From the NCBI RefSeq assembly GCF_053078305.1, contig NZ_CP166879.1: 64,000 bases of DNA; one strand, written 5' to 3'. Below the pieces are notes generated by a model. That model was not told the DNA's origin. It made no database searches and was given only the letters and a program-made list of their open reading frames with translations. The position numbers and the translations under genes are program-made. This document shows positions 3,916 through 4,118 of this stretch, piece after piece; positions within the stretch are counted from its first letter, which is position 1, and the number at the start of each line of letters is the position of its first letter.

Positions 3916-4118
3916 TTACTCACCACTACTCACTTTTTTTACTCACTTTTTGGAATCGCTCACTTCGTCTCACCTGAGATTTTTGGTGTTTTTATGTGTG
4001 TGTTTTATAAGTGGTTTTTTACTACTCACTTTTTTGCCTATATACAGGTGAGAAAGTGAGTAATTTTGTTAATTTTTTGTAAAATTACTCACTTTACTCA
4101 CTTTTGCTCCTCACTTTT
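3916..4118. repeat. Iteron array: at least 8 direct and 2 inverted copies of (T)ACTCACTTTT in an AT-rich region immediately 3' of the rep gene, candidate origin of replication
   Basis: ACTCAC motif occurrences at about 3918, 3928, 3941, 3958, 3968, 4024, 4087, 4096 and 4109, with inverted GTGAG copies at 4048 and 4056. The region is AT-rich. Confidence 0.6.

What the first reader, a model, noticed from the sequence alone, without database searches (positions are those of the whole stretch)
3916..4118. ACTCACTTTT iteron array directly 3' of the RecA-like Rep gene, a putative origin
At least 8 direct and 2 inverted copies of a 6-10 nt motif sit in a 200-bp AT-rich window. This is the hallmark of iteron-type origins bound by the adjacent Rep (P4 alpha-ori and PICI pri-rep-ori logic). 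The ORF-track plus-strand ORFs here, 3868-4059 and 4066-4353, are probably artefacts of the repeats.
Basis: partly seen in the sequence, partly recalled or inferred. Interest (0 to 1): 0.5.

Follow-up and report, generated by a model that had tools for sequence, protein, structure and literature searches.

The report
Replication origin of an E. coli phage satellite
The repeat cluster is real and is almost certainly the replication origin of a small phage-parasitic island (a PICI-type satellite) in the E. coli chromosome; this kind of origin is already described, so the find is a good but ordinary example.

Summary
Window 3916-4118 holds 11 copies of a GTGAG core (AAAAGTGAGTA on the Rep-coding minus strand): 9 in one orientation and 2 inverted. 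They form two clusters around a 47-bp, 72% AT spacer and start one base after the Rep stop codon. Chance is excluded (Poisson P about 1e-19).

The array lies in an 8.6-kb island: int, alpA, DUF4222, rep, array, ssb, perC, mor. This order is syntenic with the published E. coli PICIs. In EcCICFT073 the region 3' of pri-rep was shown experimentally to be the origin. EcCI042 and EcCI11368.1 carry near-identical helicase cores and a collinear array.

Across about 90 loci from Enterobacterales, the densest repeat cluster nearly always abuts the Rep stop codon. The iteron word changes in concert at all slots. Its fourth base tracks one residue (N441) at the start of the recognition helix of Rep's predicted C-terminal winged-helix domain: N with A, H or K with G, S or G with C.

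The two plus-strand ORFs are artefacts. It is a new member of a known kind.

The parts
3916..4118 (-). Iteron array, the putative ori: 11 slots of consensus AAAAGTGAGTA read on the Rep-coding strand
   Evidence: collinear with 9 related islands
4025..4118 (-). Rep-proximal iteron cluster. Slots 1-3 are direct (cores 4110-4114, 4097-4101, 4088-4092), slots 4-5 inverted (4056-4060, 4048-4052), slot 6 direct (4025-4029)
4046..4111 (.). Imperfect inverted repeat (31-nt arms) formed by slots 1-3 against slots 4-5. It folds as a hairpin in single-stranded DNA (whole array -21.9 kcal/mol, z -3.75)
   Evidence: (I1, I3)
4041..4048 (-). CCTGTATA box between slots 5 and 6. It is invariant in all 10 aligned islands whatever their iteron type; its role is unknown
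3976..4022 (.). Central AT-rich spacer (47 bp, 72% AT), the likely DNA-unwinding element. The equivalent 42-bp stretch is 74-81% AT in all 10 aligned islands although its sequence diverges
3916..3975 (-). Rep-distal iteron cluster, slots 7-11, all direct (cores 3969-3973, 3959-3963, 3942-3946, 3929-3933, 3919-3923)
4119..5516 (-). Rep, 465 aa, 'helicase RepA family' (AAA_25)
5151..5516 (-). Rep N-terminal domain (about residues 1-122). No Pfam match. It is 67% identical to the N-terminus of the otherwise unrelated EcCICFT073 Pri-Rep
4575..5078 (-). Rep AAA_25 / RSF1010-RepA-like P-loop helicase core (residues 147-314)
4122..4313 (-). Rep C-terminal winged-helix domain (residues 402-465), the predicted iteron reader
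4194..4196 (-). Codon of Asn441, at the N-terminal cap of the recognition helix. This residue co-varies perfectly with the fourth base of the iteron core GTG-N-G
   Evidence: codon read
5513..5812 (-). DUF4222 gene. Its stop overlaps the rep start, and it precedes rep in every E. coli and Salmonella island examined and in the one Enterobacter contig (L097), including the SF3-type EcCICFT073
3266..3676 (-). Island-encoded single-strand DNA-binding protein, the first intact gene after the origin
3673..3798 (-). Remnant of the 83-aa gene that follows the origin in other islands; annotated as an N-terminally truncated pseudogene in the closest relative
1804..10412 (-). The island that owns the origin, 8.6 kb. 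It is bounded by the 24-bp direct repeat GTATGCCTTTTTGTATGCCTTTTT (1804-1827 and 10389-10412), lies between nfeF and the ileX tRNA, and all its genes are on the minus strand: int, 298-aa unknown, alpA, three C4/Icd/Ash units, DUF4222, rep, ori, ssb, perC, mor

Best explanation
The array is the replication origin of an 8.6-kb PICI-type phage satellite inserted next to ileX.

Proposed mechanism:
1. When the island is induced, Rep is made from the unidirectional operon.
2. Rep's C-terminal winged-helix domain reads the eleven AAAAGTGAGTA iterons. Asn441, at the start of the recognition helix, specifies the A of GTGAG.
3. Rep molecules bound on the two clusters assemble into RSF1010-RepA/DnaB-like rings on either side of the 47-bp AT-rich spacer (3976-4022). 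They melt it and load themselves as the replicative helicase.
4. The island's own SSB, encoded just downstream, coats the opened strands.
5. This Rep has no recognisable primase domain, so priming is presumably done by the host.

Shown here: the repeats, their non-random clustering, their position, their conservation slot by slot, their concerted change, and their covariation with one Rep residue.

Inferred: Rep binding, melting at the spacer, self-loading and the source of primers.
For: 1. Non-random cluster abutting the Rep stop codon.

2. In nearly all of about 75 scored Rep-homologue loci from Enterobacterales, the locus-wide maximum of repeated 7-mers lies at or just after the Rep stop. 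This holds whether Rep is a 350-aa helicase-only form, a 455-470-aa form or a 680-700-aa primase-helicase fusion.

3. Ten E. coli and Salmonella islands align collinearly with 11 iteron slots. The core differs between islands but is the same at all slots within an island: GTGAGTA, GTGAGGA/GTGAGGG or GTGGGGA.

4. Over 55 distinct CTD/iteron combinations, Rep residue 441 is the only CTD column with normalised mutual information 1.00 to iteron base 4 (N-A 22, H-G 10, K-G 16, S-C 6, G-C 1). The next best columns score 0.89 and 0.83. In E. coli, N and H alleles occur on three helicase-core backgrounds that are 96.5-98.9% identical, each with the matching iterons. I predicted iteron type from the CTD sequence before fetching the loci. 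The first marker, the W(G/Q)CIR(S/T)RT helix, fitted P0007, P0019, P0060, P0091 and P0052 but failed on P0022 (L095). That failure moved the call to residue 441, which then fits all of these. The Salmonella locus P0071 (L092) is mixed.

5. The CTD models confidently (pLDDT 84.5) as helix-helix-helix-strand-strand. Its top PDB matches are almost all winged-helix domains, led by IdeR/DtxR DNA complexes (prob 0.99, TM 0.6, rmsd 2.5 A), and residue 441 caps the third helix.

6. The gene order DUF4222, rep, array, small orf, ssb, perC matches EcCICFT073, where the equivalent intergenic region was required for rep-dependent plasmid maintenance. EcCICFT073 shares DUF4222, SSB, PerC and the Rep N-domain. 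It has a different helicase core and C-terminus and different iterons (TCTACC). So the iterons follow the Rep core and CTD, not the neighbouring genes.

7. The same logic has been demonstrated for SaPI Reps: a C-terminal winged-helix domain binds 5-6-nt iterons, with 6-12 of them immediately after the rep ORF and an AT-rich centre (PMC9371898).
Against: 1. No experiment exists for this Rep class. In the 2018 paper only the SF3-type EcCICFT073 replicon was tested, and EcCI042, which has this Rep type, gave no detectable transfer.

2. This island has no recognisable capsid, terminase or lambda-cos element, and the gene just after the origin is truncated. It may therefore be a decaying element whose origin no longer fires.

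3. Rep lacks a recognisable primase domain.

4. The covariation sample is phylogenetically structured. The independent contrasts number about three within E. coli plus four or five between genera, not 55.

5. One Salmonella island (L092/L093; residue N) has a mixed array of GTGAG and GTGGG.

6. The full-length structural model is poor in the helicase core (mean pLDDT 66).
Confidence: 0.85

Rival explanations
1. The repeats are Rep-binding sites, but they serve regulation rather than initiation. Possible roles are autoregulation, a transcriptional roadblock or terminator between rep and ssb-perC-mor, or copy-number handcuffing.
For: The array lies inside a unidirectional operon between rep and ssb. 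Slots 1-5 form a strong hairpin right after the stop codon. Iteron arrays in plasmids commonly also act in copy control (general knowledge of iteron plasmids; PMC4980987 listed).
Against: On the rep-coding strand the hairpin is followed by CTGTATATAGGCAAAAAA and has no T-run, so it is not a standard intrinsic terminator. The two-cluster layout with a conserved AT-rich centre is the origin layout validated in EcCICFT073 and SaPIs. Regulation and initiation are also not mutually exclusive.
Confidence: 0.07
2. The repeats are operators for a different island or helper-phage regulator (for example AlpA, the DUF4222 protein, PerC or Mor) that controls a promoter for the downstream ssb-perC-mor genes.
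For: The island encodes several DNA-binding regulators. The array precedes ssb-perC-mor.
Against: No sigma-70-like promoter was found in 3600-4300. EcCICFT073 shares DUF4222, SSB and PerC with this island but has unrelated iterons, whereas the iteron type follows the Rep CTD residue exactly. The array is present in loci from other genera that have quite different neighbouring genes.
Confidence: 0.04
3. The array is a packaging signal (pac or cos) recognised by a helper-phage terminase.
For: Satellites must carry a packaging signal, and none was identified elsewhere in this island.
Against: There is no similarity to lambda cos. The repeats track Rep alleles rather than any terminase. Islands with and without their own terS share the same array architecture. 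Outside the collection's mislabelled Salmonella chromosomal record, the phage collection holds nothing similar.
Confidence: 0.02
4. The cluster is a chance or low-complexity AT-rich repeat with no function.
For: The region is A/T-rich and homopolymer-rich.
Against: Poisson P is 1e-14 to 1e-19. No other 203-bp stretch has more than 3 core copies. Slot positions are conserved across islands whose spacers have diverged.
Confidence: 0.01

Closest known systems
Rep-ori regions of the E. coli PICIs EcCI042 and EcCI11368.1 (catalogued in Fillol-Salom et al. 2018, ISME J, PMC6092414, Table S1)
   Same: They have the same Rep family. The helicase core is 98% identical, and tblastn identity over Rep residues 133-465 is 93-95%. 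The gene order DUF4222, rep, about 200-bp array is the same (in EcCI042 also small orf, ssb, perC). The origin is collinear with the same 11 iteron slots, the same CCTGTATA box and an AT-rich centre.
   Different: The iteron word differs: GTGAGTA here, GTGAGGG/GTGAGRS in EcCI042, GTGGGGA in EcCI11368.1. The CTD residue differs to match: N441 here and in EcCI042, H in EcCI11368.1. The integration site is different (between nfeF and ileX, not among the att sites in Table S1). This island has mor and tRNA-like elements instead of capsid or terS genes. Neither of those two origins was tested experimentally in the paper.
EcCICFT073 pri-rep-ori, the experimentally validated Gram-negative PICI replicon
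   Same: The position immediately 3' of the initiator gene is the same. The layout of two iteron sets around an AT-rich segment is the same. The flanking genes (DUF4222 upstream; small orf, ssb, perC downstream) are the same. The 125-aa Rep N-terminal domain is shared at 67% identity.
   Different: Its helicase is SF3/D5-like (D5_N + DUF5906 + Pox_D5), not AAA_25. Its iterons are (C)TGTCTACC / GGTAGA and are unrelated in sequence.
SaPI Rep-ori of Staphylococcus aureus (Qiao et al. 2022, PMC9371898, and work cited there)
   Same: The initiator is a self-loading helicase whose C-terminal winged-helix domain reads short iterons. There are 6-12 iterons immediately downstream of the rep ORF, in two groups around an AT-rich centre.
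   Different: SaPI Reps are AAA+ 3'-5' helicases of an MCM/SF3-like clade. This Rep core is RecA-fold and RSF1010-RepA/DnaB-like. There is no detectable sequence relationship. Here only slots 4-5 are inverted and the distal cluster is entirely direct.
Satellite phage P4 alpha protein with ori and crr
   Same: It is a satellite replicon in which a helicase-containing initiator binds repeated octamers through its C-terminal domain (my own knowledge; P4 alpha and its cognate ori site are mentioned in PMC6092414).
   Different: P4 alpha is a primase plus SF3 helicase. P4 uses two separated repeat regions, ori and crr. Its iteron word is unrelated to GTGAG (my own knowledge, not tested here).
RSF1010/IncQ replicon (RepA helicase, RepC initiator, oriV iterons)
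   Same: The helicase core family is shared (AAA_25; PDB 1g8y matched at E 4.8e-5). It too has an iteron origin next to an AT-rich segment.
   Different: In RSF1010 iteron binding (RepC), helicase (RepA) and primase (RepB) are separate proteins (my own knowledge). Here the helicase carries its own winged-helix domain. In Xenorhabdus, Serratia and Pectobacterium relatives it also carries a Zn-ribbon/Toprim primase.

Membership tests
Gram-negative PICI (EcCI) rep-ori replicon, as defined by Fillol-Salom et al. 2018 | Origin lies immediately 3' of the replication initiator gene | tested here: met
   The array starts one base after the Rep stop codon. The same holds in about 75 homologous loci.
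Gram-negative PICI (EcCI) rep-ori replicon, as defined by Fillol-Salom et al. 2018 | Two sets of iterons flank an AT-rich region | tested here: met
   Slots 1-6 (4025-4118) and slots 7-11 (3916-3975) flank a 47-bp, 72% AT spacer. The equivalent spacer stretch is 74-81% AT in all 10 aligned islands.
Gram-negative PICI (EcCI) rep-ori replicon, as defined by Fillol-Salom et al. 2018 | Initiator is homologous to the Pri-Rep/Rep of catalogued PICIs | tested here: met
   The helicase core is 98% identical to the Rep of EcCI042 and EcCI11368.1. The N-domain is 67% identical to EcCICFT073 Pri-Rep.
Gram-negative PICI (EcCI) rep-ori replicon, as defined by Fillol-Salom et al. 2018 | Island context: integrase, alpA, unidirectional transcription, about 8-12 kb, flanking att repeats | tested here: met
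   int is at 9068-10348 and AlpA at 7826-8029 (Pfam 23 bits against a cut-off of 21). All genes are on the minus strand. The island is 8.6 kb between 24-bp direct repeats.
Gram-negative PICI (EcCI) rep-ori replicon, as defined by Fillol-Salom et al. 2018 | Rep-dependent autonomous replication of a rep-ori fragment | not testable with these tools
   This needs the plasmid-maintenance assay used for EcCICFT073.
Gram-negative PICI (whole element) | Helper-phage induction and packaging; morphogenesis or packaging genes (capsid, terS, rpp) or a helper cos site | tested here: inconclusive
   Pfam and PHROGs found no capsid, terminase or decoration gene, and there is no lambda cos site. Rpp and other small genes were not specifically searched for. 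Induction cannot be tested here.
Gram-negative PICI (whole element) | Integration at one of the att sites listed for E. coli PICIs in Table S1 | tested here: not met
   The att core GTATGCCTTTTTGTATGCCTTTTT between nfeF and ileX is not in Table S1. This is a catalogue feature rather than a defining one.
P4-like satellite replicon (alpha, ori, crr) | Initiator is a primase plus SF3 (D5-like) helicase | tested here: not met
   Rep matches only AAA_25. It has no D5_N, Pox_D5 or primase domain.
SaPI-type Rep-ori | C-terminal winged-helix domain reads iterons placed right after rep | tested here: met
   The CTD model and Foldseek hits to winged-helix DNA binders support it, as does the covariation of residue 441 with the iteron base. 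Binding itself is inferred.
SaPI-type Rep-ori | Helicase core of the AAA+ MCM/SF3-like clade, homologous to SaPI Rep | tested here: not met
   The core is AAA_25 / RSF1010-RepA-like. The element works like a SaPI origin but is not a member of that protein family.

The most novel reading that the evidence does not exclude
One residue at the N-terminal cap of the Rep recognition helix (N441 here) may act as a simple read-out code for the fourth base of the iteron core GTG-N-G: Asn reads A, His or Lys reads G, Ser or Gly goes with C. Switching this residue together with all eleven iterons would be how enterobacterial PICI-type satellites create new, mutually compatible replicon specificities. The same winged-helix reader is bolted onto interchangeable modules: helicase only, N-domain plus helicase, or Zn-ribbon/Toprim primase plus helicase. 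The N-domain is in turn shared with SF3-type Pri-Reps. I found no description of this in the papers searched.
Probability: 0.55. Interest if true: 0.45.

Novelty: new member of a known kind. Interest (0 to 1): 0.3.

Why it matters
It places the replication origin and initiator of a previously uncatalogued ileX-adjacent satellite island that is related to elements present in hundreds of complete E. coli genomes. It extends the published PICI origin layout from the one tested SF3-type replicon to the more widespread RepA-helicase type across Enterobacterales.

The comparative data also give a sharp and cheap experiment. Swapping N441 to H, or swapping GTGAG iterons for GTGGG, should show how satellite replicons diversify their specificity and avoid cross-talk when several islands share a cell (up to 7 matching places per genome).

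Beyond that, it is a textbook iteron origin.

Tried and rejected
1. A Foldseek search of the full-length Rep model against the PDB gave only generic Rossmann and P-loop hits (E > 0.004), because the helicase core modelled poorly. It was uninformative. Modelling the CTD alone worked.

2. The phage collection gave one weak hit in a mislabelled Salmonella chromosome record, so this is not a known phage origin. The plasmid collection gave two hits, one of them in a 1.4-Mb record listed as a plasmid.

3. The sigma-70 promoter and intrinsic-terminator scan of 3600-4300 found no promoter. It found one terminator-like hairpin, on the non-transcribed strand, at chance frequency.

4. There are no DnaA boxes, IHF sites or GATC clusters in the array, so there is no sign of an oriC- or lambda-like dependence on host factors.

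5. No lambda cos site lies in the island.

6. PADLOC gave no hit for the 298-aa, 104-aa or Mor proteins.

7. My first guess at the specificity determinant was the helix W(G/Q)CIR(S/T)RT at residues 410-417. Locus L095 rejected it: it has the Q/T version but GTGAG iterons. Only residue 441 partitions perfectly.

8. I suspected O157:H7 matches annotated only as 'hypothetical protein' of being orphan origins. They are not, because the RepA gene lies directly adjacent.

9. The Rfam hit to mir-1255 inside the array (26 bits against a gathering score of 63) is noise from the hairpin.

Full report
**Observation.**
On the plus strand the word reads ACTCACTTTT. On the minus strand, which is the coding strand of every gene in this neighbourhood, it reads AAAAGTGAGT.
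- Exact CTCACTT occurs 13 times in 64 kb, and 8 of those fall in 3929-4116.
- The 10-mer occurs 4 times exactly and 3 times with one mismatch inside the array. Only two one-mismatch hits lie elsewhere.
- With the 5-nt core there are 11 copies, 9 in one orientation and 2 inverted. No other 203-bp stretch of the window has more than 3.
- Poisson P is 1e-19 for the 7-mer and 1.4e-14 for the 5-mer.
- GC drops to 0.32-0.36.
- The array begins one base after the stop codon of the minus-strand ORF 4119-5516.

**Context.**
The first 10.6 kb of the window is E. coli chromosome carrying an 8.6-kb insertion between nfeF and the ileX tRNA. The insertion is bounded by a 24-bp direct repeat at 1804-1827 and 10389-10412.

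All island genes run on the minus strand, in this order:
- integrase (9068-10348)
- a 298-aa protein with no family match
- AlpA-type HTH (7826-8029)
- three tandem units of C4 antisense RNA with Icd/Ash-like ORFs
- a 104-aa ORF
- DUF4222 (5513-5812)
- Rep (4119-5516)
- the array
- a truncated small ORF
- SSB (3266-3676)
- PerC (2983-3255)
- Mor (2462-2869)

This is the gene order of the Gram-negative phage-inducible chromosomal islands described by Fillol-Salom et al. 2018 (PMC6092414). EcCICFT073 reads int, alpA, Icd-like, DUF4222, pri-rep, a 288-bp gap, small orf, ssb, perC, capsid genes. [quoted passage not shown] It shows that an EcCICFT073 rep-ori fragment maintains a temperature-sensitive plasmid, whereas delta-ori and delta-rep versions do not.

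**The initiator.**
Rep is a 465-aa AAA_25 'helicase RepA family' protein (Pfam E 9e-43). A profile of its relatives matches RSF1010 RepA (PDB 1g8y) at E 4.8e-5.

It shares only its first 125 residues (67% identity) with EcCICFT073 Pri-Rep. The rest of that protein is D5_N + DUF5906 + Pox_D5, an SF3 helicase. The EcCICFT073 iterons are (C)TGTCTACC/GGTAGA and are unrelated to those here.

Two other catalogued PICIs, EcCI042 and EcCI11368.1, carry the RepA-type Rep (helicase core 98% identical to the window's) followed by a 200-bp gap. Their integration sites differ from this one, which is not in the paper's Table S1.

**Comparative test of the array.**
One scan of species-representative genomes with a Rep alignment returned 80 loci across Enterobacterales. 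In nearly every locus with a complete gene, the locus-wide maximum of repeated 7-mers lies at or just after the Rep stop codon, against a background median of 2. This holds for three architectures:
- helicase-only proteins of about 350-380 aa
- the 455-470-aa form
- 680-700-aa fusions carrying a Zn-ribbon and Toprim primase

The repeated word differs by clade:
- AAAGTGAGTA in this island
- AAGTGAGGAA in Xenorhabdus
- AAGTGGGGA in Pantoea and Kluyvera
- AAGTGGGGGA in Serratia, Pectobacterium, Morganella and Yersinia
- AAGTGCGGCA in Enterobacter, Kosakonia and Citrobacter

I then fetched eight further alleles by exact protein look-up: six from E. coli, one from Salmonella and one from Enterobacter. 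Ten E. coli and Salmonella origins align collinearly. They share eleven iteron slots at fixed positions, an invariant CCTGTATA box between slots 5 and 6, and a central spacer that is 74-81% AT everywhere although its sequence drifts.

Within each island all slots carry the same core, including the two inverted ones. Between islands the core differs: GTGAGTA, GTGAGGA/GTGAGGG or GTGGGGA. That is concerted change of binding sites, not drift of a low-complexity tract.

**Who reads the iterons.**
The C-terminal 64 residues of Rep model confidently (pLDDT 84.5 for the domain alone) as three helices followed by a beta-hairpin. The top Foldseek hits in the PDB are almost all winged-helix domains, mostly DNA binders. 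They are led by IdeR and DtxR bound to DNA (prob 0.99, TM about 0.6, rmsd 2.5 A) and include MCM WH domains. E-values are weak (0.04), as expected for a 70-residue domain.

I tallied the base N in AGTG-N-G downstream of each Rep against the aligned CTD. One column, window residue 441 in the motif K-N-M-R-R-W-L, has normalised mutual information 1.00 over 55 distinct CTD/iteron combinations:

| Residue 441 | Iteron base 4 | Combinations |
|---|---|---|
| Asn | A | 22 |
| His | G | 10 |
| Lys | G | 16 |
| Ser | C | 6 |
| Gly | C | 1 |

The next columns score 0.89 and 0.83. Residue 441 is the N-terminal cap of the third helix, the recognition helix.

Within E. coli it is the only column that partitions A-type from G-type origins. 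N and H alleles occur on three different helicase-core backgrounds that are 96.5-98.9% identical.

My first candidate determinant, the helix at residues 410-417, was rejected by locus L095. The one imperfect case is a Salmonella island (residue N) with a mixed GTGAG/GTGGG array.

The pairings Asn-adenine and His/Lys-guanine fit the general preferences known from protein-DNA complexes. That is my own knowledge and an inference, not a test.

**Mechanism.**
The best-supported reading is a self-loading initiator-helicase origin of the PICI/SaPI type.
1. Rep binds the two iteron clusters through its winged helix.
2. Rep oligomerises and melts the AT-rich spacer at 3976-4022.
3. Rep loads as the replicative helicase.
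4. The adjacent SSB stabilises the opened DNA.

For SaPI Reps exactly this arrangement has been demonstrated biochemically and structurally: a C-terminal WHD, 6-12 iterons of 5-6 nt directly after the rep ORF, and an AT-rich centre (PMC9371898).

There are three differences here. The helicase core is RecA-fold and RSF1010-RepA-like rather than AAA+. Only slots 4-5 are inverted, forming a hairpin with slots 1-3. No primase domain is present, so priming is presumably done by the host. No DnaA box, IHF site or GATC cluster is present.

Binding, melting and loading are inferred. None was tested.

**Rivals.**
- A purely regulatory Rep-binding array is possible but not exclusive of origin function. 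The hairpin lacks a T-run on the transcribed strand.
- Operators for another regulator are unlikely. EcCICFT073 shares the neighbouring genes yet has unrelated iterons, and the iterons follow the Rep CTD.
- A packaging site is unlikely.
- Chance is excluded.

**The plus-strand ORFs.**
ORFs 3868-4059 and 4066-4353 translate to F/L/T/C-rich low-complexity strings. Open frames across the array differ in frame and length among relatives and are absent in one. RefSeq annotates nothing there in three relatives. The second ORF is antisense to the Rep 3' end.

**Novelty and score.**
The kind of element is already described: an iteron origin 3' of the initiator in Gram-negative PICIs. Islands with this Rep type are in the published catalogue. 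This copy is a new member at an unlisted integration site with its own iteron allele.

Replication from the RepA-type Rep has not been shown experimentally in the paper read, and EcCI042 gave no transfer.

The one-residue Rep-iteron covariation and the modular build of these initiators did not appear in the literature searches. They are the only modestly new points.

Interest is 0.3.

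Noticed in passing
window 6193-7652 (minus strand): There are three tandem 457-bp units. Each holds a full-length C4 antisense RNA (Rfam 72-78 bits; 7350-7437, 6872-6959, 6415-6502), an isrK-like element and an Icd/Ash-like ORF. It is a triplicated P1/P7 immI-type c4-icd module inside the satellite. The closest relative, L001, has a shorter version.
   Followed up: partly
window 1976-2170 (minus strand): Two tandem tRNA-like elements lie at the far end of the island. Rfam tRNA scores 35 bits at 1985-2066, and a second 84%-similar 3' half sits at 2081-2117. RefSeq annotates the equivalents in L001 as tRNA-Tyr and tRNA-OTHER, but ARAGORN finds neither here.
   Followed up: partly
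window 2462-2869 (minus strand): A Mor-family (phage Mu middle/late activator) gene follows perC at the end of the island. In other E. coli PICIs that position holds capsid or terS genes. The island has no recognisable morphogenesis gene and no lambda cos, which hints at a different helper or hijacking strategy.
   Followed up: partly
window 8167-9063 (minus strand): A 298-aa ORF between int and alpA has no Pfam, PHROGs or PADLOC match. It is AT-rich (GC 0.32-0.39).
   Followed up: partly
window 5513-5812 and 5151-5516 (minus strand): The DUF4222 gene is translationally coupled to rep (overlapping stop and start) in every E. coli and Salmonella island examined and in the one Enterobacter contig (L097). 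This holds whether the helicase is SF3 or RepA type. The 125-aa Rep N-domain is likewise shared between the two helicase types, so the pair may form a conserved module of unknown role.
   Followed up: partly
window 4041-4048: A CCTGTATA box is invariant in all 10 aligned origins regardless of iteron type. It may be a site for a host or helper factor, and it matches no DnaA or IHF consensus.
   Followed up: partly
L092/L093 (Salmonella), about 260 bp after the Rep stop: This origin is a hybrid that mixes GTGAG and GTGGG iterons while Rep has Asn at the 441-equivalent position. It may be a recombinant origin or an initiator with relaxed specificity.
   Followed up: no
window 729-804: A REP-like palindromic element between nfeR and nfeF gives a sub-threshold Rfam match to naRNA4 on both strands (46 bits against a gathering score of 59.5).
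   Followed up: no
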